Shown piece after piece: positions 1-53,893 of a DNA stretch of 64,000 bases (the stretch's first letter is position 1; the number at the start of each line of letters is the position of its first letter). The stretch lies in assembly GCA_000004985.1 (NCBI GenBank), contig GG738925.1; one strand, given 5' to 3'. This DNA comes from Naegleria gruberi (lineage: Eukaryota). The notes under the pieces were generated by a model. The model saw only the letters and a list, made by a program, of their open reading frames with translations, was not told the DNA's origin and made no database searches. The position numbers and the translations under genes were made by a program.

Positions 1-320
1 CTCAAACCCAAACCCAAACCCAAACCCAAACCCAACCCAAACCCAAACCCAAACCCAAACCCAAACCCAAACCCAAACCCAAACCCAAACCCAAACCCAA
101 ACCCAAACCCAAACCCAAACCCAAACCCAAACCCAAACCCAAACCCAAACCCAAACCCAAACCCAAACCCAAACCCAAACCCAAACCCAAACCCAAACCC
201 AAACCCAAACCCAAACCCAAACCCAAACCCAAACCCAAACCCAAACCCAAACCCAAACCCAAACCCAAACCCAAACCCAAACCCAAACCCAAACCCAAAC
301 CCAAACCCAAACCCAAACCC
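1..320. repeat. Telomeric repeat array (CCCAAA)n on the + strand, i.e. (TTTGGG)n G-strand; C-rich strand runs 5'->3' inward from the left edge, as expected for a left chromosome terminus
   Basis: About 53 perfect tandem hexamers from base 1. One CCCAA 5-mer variant near base 30 and a ctcaaa start. The array ends abruptly at ~320 into unique AT-rich sequence. The tool ORF 2..340 (GLGLGL...) is a translation artefact of this repeat. Confidence 0.9.
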
Positions 321-1059
321 ACGACTAAGGTCAGACCCAATATTTTGACTTTTATTCATCTTAATTAATTATCTCAATAAATACTCATTATAAATCAATA
401 TATTATATATCAATATACTCCAAATTGAATATATAATCATATTATAACATAATATTACATCATTATAATGACTTATATAAGTTAATTTCATATAATAGAT
501 TAGACAATTAGGATATCAATGAATACATTTCAAATTCAATTCAAATCAATATATCACATTATTAATCATGTTAACAACAATATATATCAATTTCAAATAC
601 TTTGGTATCATTTCAGGATATTTACTATTCAACTTGTCAACTGACCTATTCTAACATTGAAGGTAGAAATATATACCACTCCAATTCACTTCCAATACAT
701 ATATACATGATAATGAAATATATTAATATCATTTTGACATTCATCCATATTATACATGTTACATGGCTGATCCACTTGATACCTACAGGGATGTGACAAT
801 GACATCTACTATACAGATCATTATGAAATTGATACAGTACCTTACTAATGGTGAATAAACACAACTGTATCAGTTTCATGACAATTTGATATCATTCAAC
901 ATGTCAGGAGTGTAATCATGGGAATAATGAATATCAAGATAATCAAATCATATTAATTTTGAAATCTTTCAATTATAGCATCATATATAGATCAATTAAT
1001 CATAGTATTTCAATAATTGGTATTGACTTTCATATTAATTCATTCAAACCTTAATGACC

Positions 1060-4000
1060 NNNNNNNNNNNNNNNNNNNNNNNNNNNNNNNNNNNNNNNNN
1101 NNNNNNNNNNNNNNNNNNNNNNNNNNNNNNNNNNNNNNNNNNNNNNNNNNNNNNNNNNNNNNNNNNNNNNNNNNNNNNNNNNNNNNNNNNNNNNNNNNNN
1201 NNNNNNNNNNNNNNNNNNNNNNNNNNNNNNNNNNNNNNNNNNNNNNNNNNNNNNNNNNNNNNNNNNNNNNNNNNNNNNNNNNNNNNNNNNNNNNNNNNNN
1301 NNNNNNNNNNNNNNNNNNNNNNNNNNNNNNNNNNNNNNNNNNNNNNNNNNNNNNNNNNNNNNNNNNNNNNNNNNNNNNNNNNNNNNNNNNNNNNNNNNNN
1401 NNNNNNNNNNNNNNNNNNNNNNNNNNNNNNNNNNNNNNNNNNNNNNNNNNNNNNNNNNNNNNNNNNNNNNNNNNNNNNNNNNNNNNNNNNNNNNNNNNNN
1501 NNNNNNNNNNNNNNNNNNNNNNNNNNNNNNNNNNNNNNNNNNNNNNNNNNNNNNNNNNNNNNNNNNNNNNNNNNNNNNNNNNNNNNNNNNNNNNNNNNNN
1601 NNNNNNNNNNNNNNNNNNNNNNNNNNNNNNNNNNNNNNNNNNNNNNNNNNNNNNNNNNNNNNNNNNNNNNNNNNNNNNNNNNNNNNNNNNNNNNNNNNNN
1701 NNNNNNNNNNNNNNNNNNNNNNNNNNNNNNNNNNNNNNNNNNNNNNNNNNNNNNNNNNNNNNNNNNNNNNNNNNNNNNNNNNNNNNNNNNNNNNNNNNNN
1801 NNNNNNNNNNNNNNNNNNNNNNNNNNNNNNNNNNNNNNNNNNNNNNNNNNNNNNNNNNNNNNNNNNNNNNNNNNNNNNNNNNNNNNNNNNNNNNNNNNNN
1901 NNNNNNNNNNNNNNNNNNNNNNNNNNNNNNNNNNNNNNNNNNNNNNNNNNNNNNNNNNNNNNNNNNNNNNNNNNNNNNNNNNNNNNNNNNNNNNNNNNNN
2001 NNNNNNNNNNNNNNNNNNNNNNNNNNNNNNNNNNNNNNNNNNNNNNNNNNNNNNNNNNNNNNNNNNNNNNNNNNNNNNNNNNNNNNNNNNNNNNNNNNNN
2101 NNNNNNNNNNNNNNNNNNNNNNNNNNNNNNNNNNNNNNNNNNNNNNNNNNNNNNNNNNNNNNNNNNNNNNNNNNNNNNNNNNNNNNNNNNNNNNNNNNNN
2201 NNNNNNNNNNNNNNNNNNNNNNNNNNNNNNNNNNNNNNNNNNNNNNNNNNNNNNNNNNNNNNNNNNNNNNNNNNNNNNNNNNNNNNNNNNNNNNNNNNNN
2301 NNNNNNNNNNNNNNNNNNNNNNNNNNNNNNNNNNNNNNNNNNNNNNNNNNNNNNNNNNNNNNNNNNNNNNNNNNNNNNNNNNNNNNNNNNNNNNNNNNNN
2401 NNNNNNNNNNNNNNNNNNNNNNNNNNNNNNNNNNNNNNNNNNNNNNNNNNNNNNNNNNNNNNNNNNNNNNNNNNNNNNNNNNNNNNNNNNNNNNNNNNNN
2501 NNNNNNNNNNNNNNNNNNNNNNNNNNNNNNNNNNNNNNNNNNNNNNNNNNNNNNNNNNNNNNNNNNNNNNNNNNNNNNNNNNNNNNNNNNNNNNNNNNNN
2601 NNNNNNNNNNNNNNNNNNNNNNNNNNNNNNNNNNNNNNNNNNNNNNNNNNNNNNNNNNNNNNNNNNNNNNNNNNNNNNNNNNNNNNNNNNNNNNNNNNNN
2701 NNNNNNNNNNNNNNNNNNNNNNNNNNNNNNNNNNNNNNNNNNNNNNNNNNNNNNNNNNNNNNNNNNNNNNNNNNNNNNNNNNNNNNNNNNNNNNNNNNNN
2801 NNNNNNNNNNNNNNNNNNNNNNNNNNNNNNNNNNNNNNNNNNNNNNNNNNNNNNNNNNNNNNNNNNNNNNNNNNNNNNNNNNNNNNNNNNNNNNNNNNNN
2901 NNNNNNNNNNNNNNNNNNNNNNNNNNNNNNNNNNNNNNNNNNNNNNNNNNNNNNNNNNNNNNNNNNNNNNNNNNNNNNNNNNNNNNNNNNNNNNNNNNNN
3001 NNNNNNNNNNNNNNNNNNNNNNNNNNNNNNNNNNNNNNNNNNNNNNNNNNNNNNNNNNNNNNNNNNNNNNNNNNNNNNNNNNNNNNNNNNNNNNNNNNNN
3101 NNNNNNNNNNNNNNNNNNNNNNNNNNNNNNNNNNNNNNNNNNNNNNNNNNNNNNNNNNNNNNNNNNNNNNNNNNNNNNNNNNNNNNNNNNNNNNNNNNNN
3201 NNNNNNNNNNNNNNNNNNNNNNNNNNNNNNNNNNNNNNNNNNNNNNNNNNNNNNNNNNNNNNNNNNNNNNNNNNNNNNNNNNNNNNNNNNNNNNNNNNNN
3301 NNNNNNNNNNNNNNNNNNNNNNNNNNNNNNNNNNNNNNNNNNNNNNNNNNNNNNNNNNNNNNNNNNNNNNNNNNNNNNNNNNNNNNNNNNNNNNNNNNNN
3401 NNNNNNNNNNNNNNNNNNNNNNNNNNNNNNNNNNNNNNNNNNNNNNNNNNNNNNNNNNNNNNNNNNNNNNNNNNNNNNNNNNNNNNNNNNNNNNNNNNNN
3501 NNNNNNNNNNNNNNNNNNNNNNNNNNNNNNNNNNNNNNNNNNNNNNNNNNNNNNNNNNNNNNNNNNNNNNNNNNNNNNNNNNNNNNNNNNNNNNNNNNNN
3601 NNNNNNNNNNNNNNNNNNNNNNNNNNNNNNNNNNNNNNNNNNNNNNNNNNNNNNNNNNNNNNNNNNNNNNNNNNNNNNNNNNNNNNNNNNNNNNNNNNNN
3701 NNNNNNNNNNNNNNNNNNNNNNNNNNNNNNNNNNNNNNNNNNNNNNNNNNNNNNNNNNNNNNNNNNNNNNNNNNNNNNNNNNNNNNNNNNNNNNNNNNNN
3801 NNNNNNNNNNNNNNNNNNNNNNNNNNNNNNNNNNNNNNNNNNNNNNNNNNNNNNNNNNNNNNNNNNNNNNNNNNNNNNNNNNNNNNNNNNNNNNNNNNNN
3901 NNNNNNNNNNNNNNNNNNNNNNNNNNNNNNNNNNNNNNNNNNNNNNNNNNNNNNNNNNNNNNNNNNNNNNNNNNNNNNNNNNNNNNNNNNNNNNNNNNNN

Positions 4001-4971
4001 NNNNNNNNNNNNNNNNNNNNNNNNNNNNNNNNNNNNNNNNNNNNNNNNNNNNNNNNNNNNNNNNNNNNNNNNNNNNNNNNNNNNNNNNNNNNNNNNNNNN
4101 NNNNNNNNNNNNNNNNNNNNNNNNNNNNNNNNNNNNNNNNNNNNNNNNNNNNNNNNNNNNNNNNNNNNNNNNNNNNNNNNNNNNNNNNNNNNNNNNNNNN
4201 NNNNNNNNNNNNNNNNNNNNNNNNNNNNNNNNNNNNNNNNNNNNNNNNNNNNNNNNNNNNNNNNNNNNNNNNNNNNNNNNNNNNNNNNNNNNNNNNNNNN
4301 NNNNNNNNNNNNNNNNNNNNNNNNNNNNNNNNNNNNNNNNNNNNNNNNNNNNNNNNNNNNNNNNNNNNNNNNNNNNNNNNNNNNNNNNNNNNNNNNNNNN
4401 NNNNNNNNNNNNNNNNNNNNNNNNNNNNNNNNNNNNNNNNNNNNNNNNNNNNNNNNNNNNNNNNNNNNNNNNNNNNNNNNNNNNNNNNNNNNNNNNNNNN
4501 NNNNNNNNNNNNNNNNNNNNNNNNNNNNNNNNNNNNNNNNNNNNNNNNNNNNNNNNNNNNNNNNNNNNNNNNNNNNNNNNNNNNNNNNNNNNNNNNNNNN
4601 NNNNNNNNNNNNNNNNNNNNNNNNNNNNNNNNNNNNNNNNNNNNNNNNNNNNNNNNNNNNNNNNNNNNNNNNNNNNNNNNNNNNNNNNNNNNNNNNNNNN
4701 NNNNNNNNNNNNNNNNNNNNNNNNNNNNNNNNNNNNNNNNNNNNNNNNNNNNNNNNNNNNNNNNNNNNNNNNNNNNNNNNNNNNNNNNNNNNNNNNNNNN
4801 NNNNNNNNNNNNNNNNNNNNNNNNNNNNNNNNNNNNNNNNNNNNNNNNNNNNNNNNNNNNNNNNNNNNNNNNNNNNNNNNNNNNNNNNNNNNNNNNNNNN
4901 NNNNNNNNNNNNNNNNNNNNNNNNNNNNNNNNNNNNNNNNNNNNNNNNNNNNNNNNNNNNNNNNNNNNNNN
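1060..4971. other. Assembly gap (run of N, ~3.9 kb) in the subtelomere
   Basis: Continuous n characters. Tool ORFs 1017..4976 and 1054..5004 are artefacts of translating N. Confidence 0.99.
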
Positions 4972-31907: not shown

Positions 31908-32129
31908 CAGATCTCCATCATGTGTTTTTTAAATTCGTGAGCAAGAAAATCAATATTTGAAGGATAGGAATGAGGAGAGGAAATTTTGTAAATGTGCATT
32001 TGGAGGAGGTGAATGAATTTTTCAGTTTGAAGTTCTTCCATTTTTTTTTTAAAAATTAATAGAATTCTATTAGAACTTCAAACTGAAAAATTCAGAATTC
32101 TATTAGAATTTTTGCAAATTTGGAAATTT

Positions 32130-32478
32130 TTATTTTTTACCAGAATTGGAAGTTACGATGGATGGAGCCCAAGCATTTCCTTCAATTCCACACTCATTGG
32201 TTCCTCTAATAATGTTTCTCCTCATCCTTAATAAAATTCACAAATTTTAAGATAATTTTCAAAGTGTCATCTTTCAAAACATAAATTATTCAACTTACTT
32301 TCAGACCATGAGTTTGCAACTGTCCAACAAGGTTTCTTTGTTTGAGAATCATCTCCAAATCCATCATGGAGGTCATCTCTGAGACGTGGTGCGTTGGAAA
32401 TCTTGTAACTTGTTGGAATTGATCCATCTTGACATTTGGAATGCATTGTTCAGAAACACCACCTGATTGCATAAAGTA
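32130..32478 (-). pseudogene. Degenerate tandem duplicate of the last two exons of the adjacent cathepsin B-like gene (pseudo-exons ~32299..32478 and ~32130..32205)
   Basis: It starts right after a cttaacag acceptor with YFMQSGGVSEQCIPN, paralogous to exon 4 of the upstream gene ([15 protein letters not shown]). A frame shift and a ~50-codon deletion then remove the catalytic His region (SKCQDGSIPTSYKISNA...GFGDDSQTKKPCWTVANSWSE). GTAAGT donor, then a last exon RGTNECGIEGNAWAPSIVTSNSGKK*. There is no room for 5' exons, because the intact gene's stop lies at 32535. Confidence 0.6.
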
Positions 32479-32534
32479 CTGTTAAGAAAAAAGAAAGAAT
32501 TAGAGAGCTGTCTCTGACAAGTAGATATGTGGTT

Positions 32535-33742
32535 TTAATATTTAACAAATTTATCAACATCAGCTCTTGGAGACCATACATTACTCTCAATTCCACACTC
32601 ATTAGATCCTCTCAAAATCCAAAAATGTCCTTGATCTCCCCATTCTATTCATAAATAAACAAGAAATCAAATTATTAGAAACTCACAGTCTCCAAAAGAA
32701 CAACTTACTTTCTCCCCAAGAATTAGCAATAATCCAATAAGGCTTCTTTGAAAGTGAATCCATTCCAAAACCAATAATGACAATGGCATGGCCACCAATT
32801 TCATTTCCAGTAAGATGAGAATAGACACCTGACTGATAGCTCATCAGATCCTTATAAACTGTCAAACTTGCATGAACTGGTCCATAATTTTGAATTTCAT
32901 ACATGATACTATCTAATCCTTTTATGGATGCATAGGATTTTGCCTTGTAGAAAGATGGAGCTTTACCATCGACACATTTGGATGGACAGTCATCGTCATC
33001 ATTGTTTTTATAAGGTCTACATTGTTCAGAAACTGATCCAACATTGGTCAAGAACTGCAAGAGTTTCGAATAATCAGTGAGAAATGAAACTTACATTCCA
33101 TGTTTTTGGTAGACTTCCTCCACTACATCCAAGATTATCCATATTACAATCAATTTGATATTGAGGAGACATGATTACATTCACAGAACCATTACTAGCA
33201 ATGCAAAATCTATCTGAAAGCACCTTCGTGGCAGAAACTAAATCATTGAACTCAATCCAAACTTCCATTGCCAAATTGAAATTACTTACAAGCCCAACAA
33301 GATCCACAATCCAATTGATTTCTCACAGTATGCACACATTGAGGCCACTTTTGTCTCGAATCGAAATTAGTTGGTGGTGTGTAAGCAGTTGGTGGTCCAG
33401 TTACGATGCTAAATCTTGATTTTGATGATGGTGTTATAGCTTCTTCATGAATTGCTCCTAAATATTTCTATCCTCCGTATACAATTATAACATCGTGATG
33501 ATAATATAAATTGATGATGAATAGAGAAAACATACTTGCTTAAACTCTCCGACAGTCATATTAGCAAACTTTTCATAGACTTTTGCCTTCCATGATGATT
33601 TCGGATTGTTATTGATGGAGTGAATAACATGATGGTCATGAATTGGTTCATGATGAGATGCCATTTCTCCCATAGCTACTATAGCAGAGAACATTAAGGT
33701 TACTGCTGCTAAAACAACAACCAATAAAGAACCCCTAAACAT
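32535..33742 (-). CDS. Cathepsin B-like papain-family cysteine protease, 5 exons (33536..33742, 33290..33467, 33095..33237, 32709..33054, 32535..32644; 327 aa)
   Basis: Signal peptide and propeptide. [25 protein letters not shown]|F carries the active-site Cys and is split by a 52-nt intron. Then [53 protein letters not shown], catalytic His in [15 protein letters not shown], and ANSWGE|[23 protein letters not shown]. Introns of 68, 52, 40 and 64 nt are all GT(A/ATGT)..AG and in phase with the four tool ORFs. The occluding-loop His-His pair of classical cathepsin B is absent. Confidence 0.8.
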
Positions 33743-33795: not shown

Positions 33796-35523
33796 TTATT
33801 TTTTAAGGGCATCAGATGCTTTTTTGATTTTCAAGCCAGATGGTTTGGTGATTGTGGTAGTGGCTGGTTTCTTTTCTTCTTTGACTTCTTGCTTAACTTC
33901 TTGTTTAATTTCTTGCTTTGGTTCTTGTTTGACTTCTTCTTTGACTGGTTTGGATTCAGTCTTCTTGGAGTCATTCTTATTATTCTTCTTGGCCTTGATT
34001 TCCTTTCTCTTTTCATTCTTCTTGTTGTTATTCTTTGGCTTGTCCTTCTTATTGTTAGCCTTCTTTGGCTTGTCAGTCTTTGGTTTAGTTTCAGTTGATC
34101 CTTCTTCTTGAGCCTTCTTTTCCTTCTTGGCTTGTTGACGAGCTTCCTTTTGCTTTCTTCTTTCTTCATTGAAAGGATAGAAGCTTTCCTTTTCCTTTCC
34201 AATAAGATTACCAAAATCACTTCTGTCTCTTTGAGTTTCAAAGAAGGTATGGAAATAGACATTCTTGGCTTGAACAGCAGCAAAGTTAATAGATGGATAA
34301 GTCTTTTGAAGAGATTCAAGTAAGAACTTTTCAGATATACCAACTTTTTGAGCATGTTGATACTTCTTCTTCTTATTTTCTGGTTCAGAAGAGTCAGTGG
34401 TGGAGGATTCAACCTTATCATGCTTACGCTTCTTTTCTTCTTCTGACAATTTCATAACTTCCAAATCGTGTTCTTCATCTTCCAATTTTTCTTCTTCGTC
34501 GAGTTCGAATGGAATTGAAACTTCCTTTCTTGGAGGGGTACCGAGCTTTTCAGTTCTGACTGCAATTGGTTCATCGTGATGATCATCTTCATCATCAGAG
34601 TCAGAATCACTGGAATCTTCAAATGGAACTGATTTTGGAGCACTGATTGGTGTTCTCTTTCCTGAGACAGAGGCTGGAGAAGCCTTCTTTAAAGGTGTGA
34701 GTGGTTTGGTACTTGTGGTTTCAGATGCTTCAGTCATTTTGACATCTTCATCATCTTCGTCAGAATCAGAGTCACTTGAATCAGCATATGGAACCTTTTT
34801 AGGAGTAGAAATTGGAGTACGTTTAACCTTTGCTGGAACATCTTCATCATCGCTACTATCAGCCATATTTGTTGGGAGTGACAAATTGGATGGTTTAGCT
34901 GGAGTGGAAGCTTTCTTTGGAGTGGCAGTATTAGTAGCAACTGGTTCAGCAGCAATATCAACAACAACAGATGAAACAACTTCCTTTCTTGGTGGAGTGC
35001 CGAGTCTTTCAGTTCTGACTGCAATTGGTTCATCATGATGATCATCTTCATCATCAGAATCGGAATCACTAGAATCTGCGAATGGAATAGACTTTGGAGT
35101 ACTAATTGGTGTTCTCTTACCACTAACAGAAGAAGCAGAAGGAGAAGTCTTTTTCTTCAACTTTTCAGCAGTGCTTTCTGTTGTGGCTTTTTCTTCATCA
35201 GAAGAGTCGGATTCAGAATCGCTAGAATCAGCGAATGGAACCTTCTTTGGTGTACTGATAGGTGTTCTGAGTTTAGTGGCAGACTTTGGTGTTGGTTTGG
35301 CTACTGGTGATGATGCAACAACAGCAGATGAAGCCTTGAGTGGAGTCTTCTTTGGTGTGATTGGAACAGAATCTAAAACAACAGAATCTTCATCTTCCAT
35401 TTTGTGTGGTGTCTTCTTTGGTGTTGTTGCTGGAGCTAAAGCTTTTGATGGTGTTTTGGCTGGCGACTTCAAGTCTGCGTCAGTCTTCTTTGGAGTTTGG
35501 ATTTTCTTTGGTGTTGTGCTCAT
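33796..35523 (-). CDS. Lys/Ser/Thr/Pro-rich nucleolar-phosphoprotein-like protein with internal repeats (575 aa)
   Basis: Many (S/T)PKK motifs and acidic Ser clusters (SSDSESDSSDEE). Repeated unit RTPISTPK(K/S)(V/I)PFADSSDS(E/D)SD occurs three times, DDEDDHHDEPIAVRTE(R/K)LGTPPRKEV twice. C-terminal basic region with KK(E/Q) runs. Start assigned to the ATG in aaaaaaaATG context (35523). Overlapping + strand ORFs are mirror artefacts. Confidence 0.6.
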   Translation of the reverse strand: MSTTPKKIQTPKKTDADLKSPAKTPSKALAPATTPKKTPHKMEDEDSVVLDSVPITPKKTPLKASSAVVASSPVAKPTPKSATKLRTPISTPKKVPFADSSDSESDSSDEEKATTESTAEKLKKKTSPSASSVSGKRTPISTPKSIPFADSSDSDSDDEDDHHDEPIAVRTERLGTPPRKEVVSSVVVDIAAEPVATNTATPKKASTPAKPSNLSLPTNMADSSDDEDVPAKVKRTPISTPKKVPYADSSDSDSDEDDEDVKMTEASETTSTKPLTPLKKASPASVSGKRTPISAPKSVPFEDSSDSDSDDEDDHHDEPIAVRTEKLGTPPRKEVSIPFELDEEEKLEDEEHDLEVMKLSEEEKKRKHDKVESSTTDSSEPENKKKKYQHAQKVGISEKFLLESLQKTYPSINFAAVQAKNVYFHTFFETQRDRSDFGNLIGKEKESFYPFNEERRKQKEARQQAKKEKKAQEEGSTETKPKTDKPKKANNKKDKPKNNNKKNEKRKEIKAKKNNKNDSKKTESKPVKEEVKQEPKQEIKQEVKQEVKEEKKPATTTITKPSGLKIKKASDALKK

Positions 35524-36154
35524 TTTTTTTGAAAATAATTTTGTTCCACAAAAAAATGGCGCGTAGAATTTTATTAAAGGATTACGCTGGGATCTTTTTT
35601 TGTTTAACATCTAAAAATAAAAAATTTCCAGTCACTAGTAGAAAATCACAATTTTCACACATTGTAAGATTGTGAAATAGTTACTGAGTGATTTTTGATG
35701 AAAGTTGTAGGAAATGAAAATCAACATACAAAGTGACGTGAATATAGAGCTATAAATGAACGAAATAAAGTATAACATGTCGATGAGCCATTACAATGTT
35801 GTGAATTTAAAATGCAAGTTGAAAAAGTTCACATAAATTCTTGACTTTTTTTCGAATTGACCTTTTCATAGAATAACAATCAGCTATTGGAAACTTCACA
35901 ATAGAATATCAATCTACATGTGTTATAGTGTATACTGCAAAGTTTTAACATGTTTTGGTTTTGTCCTAGTTCAGCCGTTATTATTTCTATTTTTGTGAGA
36001 CTGTCCATATTAGGTGAAGATTCAAGATAACAGCTCAAATCAAACCTTCAATTGGTACACTTTATCACCAACCCAAAAACAATAATCTTTTCACACCAAA
36101 TCCACTAAAAACTACAAAAAATTACTAAAATTACAATTTTTTTACTCTACAGTT

Positions 36155-53564: not shown

Positions 53565-53812
53565 CAAATCTTTGATTATTTTCTCGATGGTTTTAAGAGA
53601 TGAAACTTTGAAAATTGATATTTAGCTAGATTGCATTTCATTCCTCCTATGATTAAAAAAGTAAAACTCAAACATTGGGATAAGGCACGAATCTTTATTT
53701 ATTTTCTCAGTGGTTTTAAGAGATAAAACTTTGAACATTGAAAAATAGGTAGATTACATACTATTACCTCTATTATGAAAAAAGCAAAACTCAAATATTC
53801 CAGAAAGAGTCA
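53565..53812. repeat. Two tandem direct copies (~121 and ~127 bp, ~80% identical)
   Basis: Copy 1 is caaatctttgattattttctcgatggttttaagagatgaaactttgaaaattga...aaaaaagtaaaactcaaacattgggataagg. Copy 2 is cgaatctttatttattttctcagtggttttaagagataaaactttgaacattga...aaaaaagcaaaactcaaatattccagaaaga. It lies immediately 3' of the tRNA-Asp gene (on the tRNA strand). Confidence 0.7.
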
Positions 53813-53822
53813 AAAATTATGA

Positions 53823-53893
53823 CTCGATTGCCGGGAATTGAACCCGGGTCGCCAGAGTGACAGTCTGGAATGCTACCACTATACCACACCCGA
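53823..53893 (-). tRNA. tRNA-Asp (anticodon GUC), ~71 nt
   Basis: Reverse complement reads TCGGGTG TG GTATAGTGGTAGC ... CCAGA CTGTCAC TCTGG CGAC CCGGG TTCAATT CCCGG CAATCGA G. The anticodon loop CTGTCAC gives GTC. Canonical D-loop AGTGGTA and T-arm GGTTCAATTCC. U1:A72 and discriminator G, as in eukaryotic tRNA-Asp. One acceptor-stem mismatch. T5 run follows on the minus strand. Confidence 0.8.

What the first reader, a model, noticed from the sequence alone, without database searches (positions are those of the whole stretch)
32130..33742. Cathepsin B-like gene followed by a decayed tandem duplicate of its exons 4-5
The intact five-exon gene ends at 32535. Only ~57 bp further, after a polypyrimidine tract and AG acceptor, lies a copy of exon 4 (YFMQSGGVSEQC..) that has lost ~50 codons including the catalytic His and changed frame. 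Then comes a GTAAGT intron and a copy of exon 5 (GTNECGIEG..). Splice signals are retained, so it could still be used as an alternative 3' end. The intact enzyme also lacks the occluding-loop His-His, which in classical cathepsin B underlies exopeptidase activity (not checked against alignments).
Basis: seen in the sequence. Interest (0 to 1): 0.5.

Follow-up and report, generated by a model that had tools for sequence, protein, structure and literature searches.

The report
Protease gene with decayed duplicated tail
A Naegleria gruberi cathepsin B-like protease gene is followed directly by a broken, non-functional copy of its own last two exons; this is an ordinary duplication relic, and it matters mainly because the public gene model wrongly splices the relic into the protein.

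Summary
The window is the Naegleria gruberi reference sequence. On the minus strand there is an intact five-exon, 327-aa cathepsin B-like gene (33742-32535). It has a signal peptide, a propeptide, a full Peptidase_C1 domain and the catalytic Gln/Cys/His/Asn residues.

After a 56-bp spacer comes a degenerate copy of exon 4 (32478-32299), intron 4 (32298-32227) and exon 5 (32226-32130). The homology is far beyond chance (blastn E 1e-17, Smith-Waterman z 23). The copy shares two intron positions and 13 derived residues with its neighbour, so the two are each other's closest relatives.

The copy is dead:
- a net 34-nt frameshifting deletion,
- a 44-codon deletion that removes the catalytic-His region,
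- TGG changed to TGA at the start of exon 5',
- a further 13-nt frameshift.

It also evolved faster than the parent (13 versus 3 unique changes). Any use as an alternative 3' end would give a truncated, inactive protein, and nothing supports such use.

The missing occluding loop is real, but it is shared by all 10 relatives aligned explicitly. The public model XP_002669558.1 is a chimera that skips true exon 5 and reads the pseudo-exons. Overall this is ordinary and of low interest.

The parts
33536..33742 (-). Exon 1 of the intact cathepsin B-like gene. It holds the ATG at 33742, the signal peptide and the start of the propeptide.
   Evidence: Spliced model. tblastn and the public model agree on this exon.
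33290..33467 (-). Exon 2. It holds the rest of the propeptide and the mature N-terminus, including the oxyanion Gln and catalytic Cys ([10 protein letters not shown]).
   Evidence: The acceptor is GGATAG|AAATAT and the donor is GTAAGT.
33095..33237 (-). Exon 3 (..[28 protein letters not shown]), ending in phase 0.
   Evidence: The 52-nt intron 2 gives a gap-free alignment to homologues. The public model's 28-nt intron instead inserts WIEFNDLV.
32709..33054 (-). Exon 4, 346 nt. It holds the shortened occluding-loop region, the catalytic His ([11 protein letters not shown]) and the catalytic Asn (ANSWGE). It ends in phase 1.
32535..32644 (-). Exon 5, 110 nt ([36 protein letters not shown]). The stop codon TAA is at 32537-32535.
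   Evidence: With this exon the Pfam domain is complete, 2-219 of 220.
32479..32534 (-). 56-nt spacer between the true stop codon and pseudo-exon 4'. It ends in a pyrimidine-rich tract plus AG and must contain the duplication or deletion breakpoint.
   Evidence: The four genuine acceptors of this gene have no comparable pyrimidine tract.
32299..32478 (-). Pseudo-exon 4', 180 nt against 346 nt in the parent. Codons 1-12 (YFMQSGGVSEQC) are in phase. A net 34-nt deletion then shifts the frame, and the homologous reading continues as HSKCQDGSIPTSYK ... GFGDDSQTKKPCWTVANSWSE with 44 codons missing, including the catalytic-His region.
32227..32298 (-). Pseudo-intron 4', 72 nt, GTAAGTTG...TTATTAAG, at the same position and phase as intron 4.
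   Evidence: The collinear alignment runs through it.
32130..32226 (-). Pseudo-exon 5', 97 nt against 110 nt in the parent. TGA replaces the parental TGG at the first full codon, and a net 13-nt deletion follows. The remaining ORF MRRNIIRGTNECGIEGNAWAPSIVTSNSGKK* is out of frame with exon 4'.

Best explanation
The segment 32130-32478 is a non-functional relic of a local tandem duplication of the 3' part of the adjacent Naegleria gruberi cathepsin B-like gene.

The simplest history has one event. A unit of about 0.55-0.6 kb, running from inside intron 3 to just past the stop codon, was duplicated head-to-tail, for example by unequal exchange or replication slippage (inferred). Translation ends at the stop codon of the proximal exon 5; that transcripts also end near there is inferred, because the poly(A) site is unmapped. 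The distal copy was therefore never needed. It drifted and picked up two frameshifting deletions, a 44-codon deletion that removes the His region, and a stop codon (shown).

The intact gene most likely encodes a secreted or lysosomal endopeptidase of the cathepsin B-like type that lacks the occluding loop. This is inferred from its signal peptide, propeptide, complete catalytic residues and absent His-His loop. The relic does nothing, except possibly being carried in the 3' UTR. It has misled automatic gene prediction.

The confidence given (0.65) is for this specific single-event history. That the segment is a dead duplicate of this gene's own exons 4-5, whichever history produced it, I put at about 0.92.
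For: - Homology to exon 4, intron 4 and exon 5 is significant and collinear.
- The copy keeps the parental intron positions and phases: phase 0 before exon 4' and phase 1 at SW.E|. A Naegleria fowleri homologue has its single intron elsewhere, so these positions are lineage-specific markers.
- Among 113 full-length homologues, the neighbour is the best match to the fragment: 40 of 64 alignable residues, against a maximum of 35 and a mean of 27.8 for the others.
- The two share 13 derived states, including GFG in place of the 97%-conserved GWG.
- Disabling lesions are present: net -34 nt, -44 codons, TGG to TGA, and net -13 nt.
- The relative rate is 13 unique changes in the copy against 3 in the parent, binomial p 0.02.
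- dN/dS is 0.35 (bootstrap 0.16-0.67) with dS about 0.85 on 64 alignable codons. This fits one constrained and one free lineage, and an old event.
- No remnant of exons 1-3 and no other cathepsin copy occurs in the window.
- The five-exon model scores 197.6 bits with a complete domain. The public model that includes the relic scores 159.6 bits and is truncated at profile position 193.
- N. gruberi is reported to have lineage-specific cathepsin B expansions, with 35 C01 genes (PMC8296547).
Against: - No transcript data could be consulted, so non-use of the pseudo-exons is inferred from the lesions, not shown.
- The donor GTAAGT and both AG acceptors survive despite about 30% nucleotide divergence. 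The chance of this under pure drift is a few per cent by my own rough estimate.
- dN/dS of 0.35 is somewhat below the roughly 0.55 expected if the copy was neutral from the start. However, the confidence interval includes that value, and using only alignable codons biases the estimate downward.
- A single partial duplication cannot be separated from a whole-gene duplication followed by a deletion.
Confidence: 0.65

Rival explanations
1. The fragment is the 3' remnant of a once complete and functional tandem paralogue. The whole gene was duplicated, both copies diverged under selection, and a later deletion of about 0.7 kb or more removed the intergenic spacer and exons 1-3 of the downstream copy. 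The remainder then decayed.
For: - dN/dS of 0.35 and retention of family motifs (GFG, KKP.W..ANSW.E, RG.NECGIE) at dS about 0.85 would fit a period under purifying selection.
- Cathepsin genes are clustered and expanded in Naegleria.
Against: - It needs two events where one suffices.
- The upper bound of dN/dS (0.67) includes the value expected for a copy that was neutral from birth, and the estimate is biased by using only alignable codons.
- There is no trace of exons 1-3.
- A degenerate-pattern scan of metagenome contigs found no intact relative carrying the fragment's own motif PCWTVANSWSE.
Confidence: 0.27
2. The copy is a functional alternative 3' end. Exon 3 or exon 4 would be spliced to exon 4', giving either a catalytically inactive secreted isoform or a transcript with a regulatory 3'-UTR intron that is degraded by nonsense-mediated decay.
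For: - A GTAAGT donor, AG acceptors and a pyrimidine tract are present.
- Frame 0 of exon 4' is open for all 60 codons and matches the phase of exon 3.
- The public model XP_002669558.1 uses part of these exons.
Against: - The exon 3 to 4' product is 242 aa. It loses His and Asn, is non-homologous after 12 codons, and matches only profile positions 2-98 of 220.
- The open off-frame is expected by descent: P is about 0.07, and the parent's same off-frame is open over the alignable segments.
- The homologous frame meets TGA at the start of exon 5'.
- The copy shows accelerated change, including at otherwise conserved positions.
- The public model needs a 28-nt intron, an internal AAG acceptor and an out-of-frame reading of exon 5', so it looks like a prediction artefact.
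- The real acceptors of this gene have no pyrimidine tract.
- The exact public model was the only sequence of its cluster in the protein collection, and no transcript-derived protein was found there.
Confidence: 0.05
3. The similarity is due to chance or low complexity in an AT-rich genome, and there is no true duplicate.
For: The region is 34% G+C. Many short spurious matches appear at E > 0.01 in the same blastn run.
Against: - There is a collinear 216-column alignment with E 1.3e-17 and a Smith-Waterman z of 23.
- tblastn gives E 2e-9.
- The fragment alone matches Pfam Peptidase_C1 with E 0.0012 at 19.4 bits, just under the 20.7-bit cut-off.
- The order, intron position and phase are conserved.
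Confidence: 0.01

Closest known systems
Naegleria fowleri cathepsin B-like protease (UniProt X5D911, P0003) and Fowlerpain-2 (A0A1L1XWF9, P0009/P0013)
   Same: - They are the closest named homologues outside N. gruberi, at 49% and 46% identity.
- They share the signal peptide, short propeptide, catalytic Gln/Cys/His/Asn residues and the same short segment in place of the occluding loop.
   Different: - The window gene is a divergent N. gruberi lineage with no hit above 49% identity, other than the public model of the same gene.
- It has GFG instead of GWG, an acidic NNDDDD insert and four introns. The Fowlerpain-2 gene has one intron at another position.
- No duplicated 3' relic was examined or seen at the N. 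fowleri locus.
Giardia cathepsin B-like proteases without occluding loop (e.g. giardipain-1/CP2)
   Same: These are cathepsin B-type sequences that lack the occluding loop. They are described as endopeptidases only (PMC10454693). The window protein likewise lacks the loop and the His-His pair.
   Different: They come from a different eukaryotic lineage, and no direct sequence comparison was made here. The activity of the Naegleria gruberi protein is untested.
Classical cathepsin B (human CTSB; Schistosoma mansoni SmCB1, PDB 4i04/3qsd)
   Same: These are the best solved-structure matches (E 1e-55 to 1e-48), with the same fold family and catalytic residues.
   Different: The alignment breaks at the occluding loop: query residues 187-209 correspond to chain residues 162-213, so the query is about 29 residues shorter. 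His110-His111 and the loop disulphide are absent.
Unprocessed (duplicative) pseudogene fragments, i.e. relics of partial tandem gene duplication
   Same: - The fragment has intron-containing, collinear homology to the neighbouring parent.
- It carries frameshifts, a premature stop and internal deletions.
- It shows an accelerated rate.
   Different: Nothing essential differs. The only unusual point is how well the splice-like signals have survived, which fooled the genome annotation.

Membership tests
Papain-family cysteine peptidase (MEROPS C1A / Pfam Peptidase_C1): intact gene | Full-length Peptidase_C1 domain above the curated cut-off | tested here: met
   197.6 bits against a 20.7-bit cut-off, covering profile positions 2-219 of 220.
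Papain-family cysteine peptidase (MEROPS C1A / Pfam Peptidase_C1): intact gene | Catalytic Gln, Cys, His and Asn at the conserved alignment columns | tested here: met
   [21 protein letters not shown] and ANSWGEKWG align with the catalytic motifs of human cathepsin B and of the Naegleria homologues.
Cathepsin B subfamily (sequence relationship): intact gene | Closest solved and named relatives are cathepsin B rather than the L, H or C types | tested here: met
   The top 23 PDB hits are cathepsin B or B-like (E 1e-55 to 2.5e-44). Types C, H, L and K score lower. Named database hits are cathepsin B.
Cathepsin B subfamily (sequence relationship): intact gene | Short cathepsin B-type propeptide (Pfam Propeptide_C1, PF08127) | tested here: inconclusive
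   20.8 bits with E 3.8e-4, which is below the curated 32.7-bit cut-off.
Classical cathepsin B with peptidyl-dipeptidase (exopeptidase) activity | Occluding loop of about 20 residues carrying His110-His111 | tested here: not met
   The region is about 29 residues shorter than in SmCB1. In the alignment with human CTSB, the PPCEHHVNGSRPPCTG segment is absent. The same absence is seen in the 10 relatives aligned.
Classical cathepsin B with peptidyl-dipeptidase (exopeptidase) activity | Measured endo- or exopeptidase activity | not testable with these tools
   This requires recombinant enzyme assays.
Unprocessed duplicative pseudogene fragment: segment 32130-32478 | Significant homology to a parent gene, with introns retained at the parental positions | tested here: met
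   blastn E 1.3e-17 through the intron. The phases match, 0 before exon 4' and 1 after it.
Unprocessed duplicative pseudogene fragment: segment 32130-32478 | Lesions that prevent production of the parental-type protein | tested here: met
   A net -34 nt frameshift, a 44-codon deletion including the His region, TGG changed to TGA, and a net -13 nt frameshift.
Unprocessed duplicative pseudogene fragment: segment 32130-32478 | Relaxed constraint relative to the parent | tested here: met
   13 unique residue changes in the copy against 3 in the parent, measured against the consensus of the other homologues in the alignment, p 0.02. The pairwise dN/dS of 0.35 (0.16-0.67) is compatible with this but not decisive.
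Unprocessed duplicative pseudogene fragment: segment 32130-32478 | No productive expression | not testable with these tools
   No N. gruberi transcript data were accessible. The exact five-exon product is not in the protein collection, and the public chimeric model is the only member of its cluster.
Alternative or mutually exclusive duplicated 3' exons | The duplicated exons keep an open, homologous reading frame in phase with the upstream exon | tested here: not met
   Only the first 12 codons are homologous in the in-phase frame. The rest is out of frame and stops six codons into exon 5'.

The most novel reading that the evidence does not exclude
The pseudo-exons are still spliced in vivo, either exon 3 to 4' or as a 3'-UTR intron 4'/5'. 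The duplicate would then act as a regulatory device: an unproductive isoform sensitive to nonsense-mediated decay, or a secreted, catalytically dead fragment made of the propeptide plus the N-terminal half (L-domain) of the protease. This would explain why GTAAGT and the AG acceptors survived about 30% sequence divergence.
Probability: 0.05. Interest if true: 0.35.

Novelty: new member of a known kind. Interest (0 to 1): 0.14.

Why it matters
The main value is for annotation. The public N. gruberi protein XP_002669558.1 / D2W270 (NAEGRDRAFT_75481) is a chimera. It drops the N-terminus of the signal peptide, inserts 8 residues from intron 2, skips the real last exon and appends pseudo-exon sequence. 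Its protease domain is therefore truncated. This sequence feeds into UniProt, EukProt and comparative counts of Naegleria cathepsins, which are used when searching for pathogenicity factors in N. fowleri.

The corrected 327-aa model restores a complete cathepsin B-like enzyme without an occluding loop. Biologically, the relic is one more trace of the duplication and decay turnover expected in an expanded protease family. It offers no new mechanism.

Tried and rejected
- Two first attempts at exon boundaries gave stops. The correct exon 2 acceptor is GGATAG|AAATAT, and exon 4 ends one base earlier than first assumed.
- I first assumed that exon 4' and exon 5' join in frame. Concatenating them showed ...SWSER* instead: TGA plus a 13-nt shift.
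The public N. gruberi proteins P0001 and P0104 are not on record there, so no annotated N. gruberi context and no paralogue gene structures could be fetched.
- A homology search with the 92-aa 'repaired' fragment returned nothing, because the word index needs three shared 5-mers.
- Two metagenome scans found nothing. One used an exact 34-mer from the end of exon 4, and the other a degenerate pattern for the fragment-specific PCWTVANSWSE. No other strain, transcript or intact relative was recovered.
- I considered whether the fully open frame 0 of exon 4' means selection, and rejected it. P is about 0.07 from off-frame stop frequencies of 17 ORFs in the window, and the same off-frame of the parent is open over the alignable segments.
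- I considered whether the fragment derives from a different paralogue, and rejected it. The neighbour is its best match, with 13 shared derived states and shared intron positions.
- A literature search for the locus identifiers found no paper.

Full report
**Source and orientation.** The window is AT-rich eukaryotic DNA, about 33% G+C. The feature lies on the minus strand. A protein search identified the organism. The top hit is 'predicted protein [Naegleria gruberi]', with accessions EFC36814.1, XP_002669558.1, D2W270 and locus tag NAEGRDRAFT_75481. I could rebuild that public protein exactly from the window sequence, so the window is the N. gruberi reference assembly itself.

**The intact gene.** After correcting two boundaries, the gene has five exons: 33742-33536, 33467-33290, 33237-33095, 33054-32709 and 32644-32535. 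The introns are 68, 52, 40 and 64 nt. The donors are GTATGT and three GTAAGT, and all acceptors are AG. The 327-aa product has several expected features:
- a hydrophobic N-terminus;
- a weak cathepsin-B-type propeptide match, at 20.8 bits, below the curated cut-off;
- a complete Peptidase_C1 domain, at 197.6 bits over profile positions 2-219 of 220;
- best matches among solved structures to cathepsin B of Schistosoma and mammals, with E 1e-55 to 1e-48;

**The occluding loop.** The HMMER alignments to cathepsin B structures break exactly at the loop. Query residues 187-209 correspond to SmCB1 residues 162-213, so the query is about 29 residues shorter. In the multiple alignment the human segment PPCEHHVNGSRPPCTG has no counterpart. 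However, the same holds for all 10 relatives aligned: N. fowleri cathepsin B-like and Fowlerpain-2, two other N. gruberi paralogues, Willaertia, Acrasis, Kipferlia, Andalucia and one Exaiptasia protein. It is a clade trait, comparable to the loop-less cathepsin B-like endopeptidases described for Giardia (PMC10454693).

**The downstream copy.** The true stop codon ends at 32535. A 56-nt spacer follows (32534-32479), ending in TTCTTTCTTTTTTCTTAACAG. After it come three elements:
- a 180-nt segment (32478-32299) that begins YFMQSGGVSEQC, where the parent has [12 protein letters not shown];
- a GTAAGTTG...AAG interval of 72 nt (32298-32227);
- a 97-nt segment (32226-32130) containing IIRGTNECGIEGNAWAP, where the parent has [17 protein letters not shown].

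The homology is not chance:
- tblastn finds the two strongest pieces with a joint E of 2e-9, and finds no other cathepsin-like sequence in the 64 kb.
- blastn gives a single collinear alignment through the end of exon 4, the intron and exon 5, with E 1.3e-17.
- The Smith-Waterman score is 50, against 12.5 +/- 1.6 for shuffles.
- The repeat finder independently reports the same pairs: 74% over 73 nt, 80% over 51 nt, and an exact 14-mer GTTTCTGAACAATG.
- The repaired fragment alone nearly reaches the Pfam cut-off, at 19.4 against 20.7 bits.

**State of the copy.** Relative to the parent it carries four lesions:
1. A net 34-nt deletion right after VSEQC shifts the frame.
2. A 44-codon deletion between ..YK and GFG.. 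removes the strands carrying the catalytic His. A His two residues before GFG may or may not be its remnant.
3. TGA replaces the parental TGG at the first full codon of exon 5'.
4. A further net 13-nt deletion occurs in exon 5'.

These are shown.

No combination of the canonical splice-like sites yields a homologous continuous reading. Splicing exon 3 to 4' to 5' gives a 242-aa product that is out of frame after 12 codons and stops six codons into exon 5'. It covers only profile positions 2-98 of 220. Frame 0 of exon 4' being open for 60 codons is not a sign of constraint. It is the +1 off-frame of the homologous reading, in which stops are rare in this genome (0.054 per codon, P about 0.07 for 48 codons). 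The parent's same off-frame is also open over the alignable segments.

**Origin of the copy.** In the 64 codons that can be aligned, the adjacent gene is the best match to the fragment among 113 full-length homologues: 40 of 64, against a maximum of 35 and a mean of 27.8 for the others. The two share 13 states that differ from the family consensus. These include Phe for the 97%-conserved Trp of GWG, Glu for Asp in VSEQC, and the Pro that ends the NECGIE.N.W.P motif.

They also share both intron positions and phases. The N. fowleri Fowlerpain-2 gene has a single intron at a different place. The fragment therefore descends from this gene's own lineage by local duplication, with its introns. It is not a retrocopy and not a stray piece of another paralogue.

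Divergence is old: dS is about 0.85, and 70% of the 192 aligned nucleotides are identical. The copy has changed faster, with 13 unique residue changes against 3, p 0.02. Pairwise dN/dS is 0.35 (bootstrap 0.16-0.67). That is compatible with one constrained and one unconstrained lineage, given the bias from using only alignable codons.

**History and mechanism.** The most economical history is a single head-to-tail duplication of about 0.55-0.6 kb. Its breakpoints would lie in intron 3 and just past the stop codon. Translation ends at the proximal exon 5, and the distal copy drifts.

I cannot exclude a whole-gene tandem duplication followed by deletion of the downstream copy's 5' half. The somewhat low dN/dS and the known cathepsin B expansions in N. 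gruberi (35 C01 genes, PMC8296547) leave room for it, but it needs two events. Functional use as an alternative 3' end is unlikely, for the reasons above, though it is untested.

The survival of GTAAGT and of both AG acceptors at this divergence is mildly improbable under drift, a few per cent by my rough estimate. It is the only point in favour of residual use.

**The public annotation.** XP_002669558.1 (343 aa) corresponds to exons 33694-33536, 33467-33290, 33261-33095, 33054-32709, 32427-32299 and 32205-32153. It has these problems:
- It starts at an internal Met.
- It uses a 28-nt 'intron' that inserts WIEFNDLV, where all homologues are gap-free.
- It skips the true exon 5 inside a 281-nt intron.
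- It enters exon 4' at an internal AAG, and reads exon 5' out of frame.

Its protease domain is truncated at profile position 193 of 220 and scores 38 bits less than the five-exon model. The relic has thus produced a chimeric database protein. No paper mentions the locus.

**Limits.** No N. gruberi transcript data or close-relative genomes could be reached. The contig index does not hold the N. gruberi models. A fragment search was blocked by the word index. Two metagenome scans were empty.

**Verdict.** The feature is an ordinary duplicative pseudogene fragment beside a loop-less cathepsin B-like gene. Its practical consequence is a correction to the public gene model.

Noticed in passing
window 3-321 (and gap 1060-4971): About 53 tandem copies of CCCAAA, which is TTTGGG on the other strand, sit at the very start of the window with the C-rich strand running 5' to 3'. 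This is a telomere-like array at a scaffold end. TTTGGG was already proposed as the candidate N. gruberi telomere repeat (PMC3622300). It is followed by AT-rich subtelomeric sequence and a 3.9-kb assembly gap of Ns.
   Followed up: partly
window 32014-32094: There is a perfect 23-nt inverted repeat, 32014-32036 with 32072-32094, and its 35-nt loop contains the palindrome TAATAGAATTCTATTA. It is unique in the window. As RNA it folds at -33.6 kcal/mol, z -6.9. It lies between the pseudo-exon 5' stop (32130) and the ATG of the next minus-strand ORF (31907). It could be a terminator-like or promoter-proximal hairpin, or a small foldback element. Its function is unknown.
   Followed up: partly
window 32153-33694 (public model XP_002669558.1 / NAEGRDRAFT_75481): The public gene model is a chimera. 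It has an internal start codon, a 28-nt intron that adds WIEFNDLV, and a 281-nt intron that swallows the true exon 5. Its C-terminus is read from pseudo-exons, partly out of frame.
   Followed up: yes
window 53567-53893: A tRNA-Asp(GTC) gene lies on the minus strand at 53823-53893. Immediately beside it is a 123-nt unit repeated 1.9 times at 53567-53799.
   Followed up: no
window 33796-35610 (minus strand): The upstream neighbour is a 604-aa single-ORF protein, rich in Lys, Ser, Asp and Glu, with internal repeats such as ...RTPISTPK..PFADSSDSDSDDEDDHHDEPIAVRTE.LGTPPRKEV.. occurring twice. Short tandem DNA repeats lie at 33873-34083. It was not characterised.
   Followed up: no
L001 4001-5073 and 8437-9073 (Naegleria fowleri VFQX01000043.1): The Fowlerpain-2 gene has a single intron, within YQDFFS|YKSGVY. 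A second Peptidase_C1 gene lies about 3.4 kb away on the opposite strand, so cathepsin genes are clustered in N. fowleri too.
   Followed up: partly
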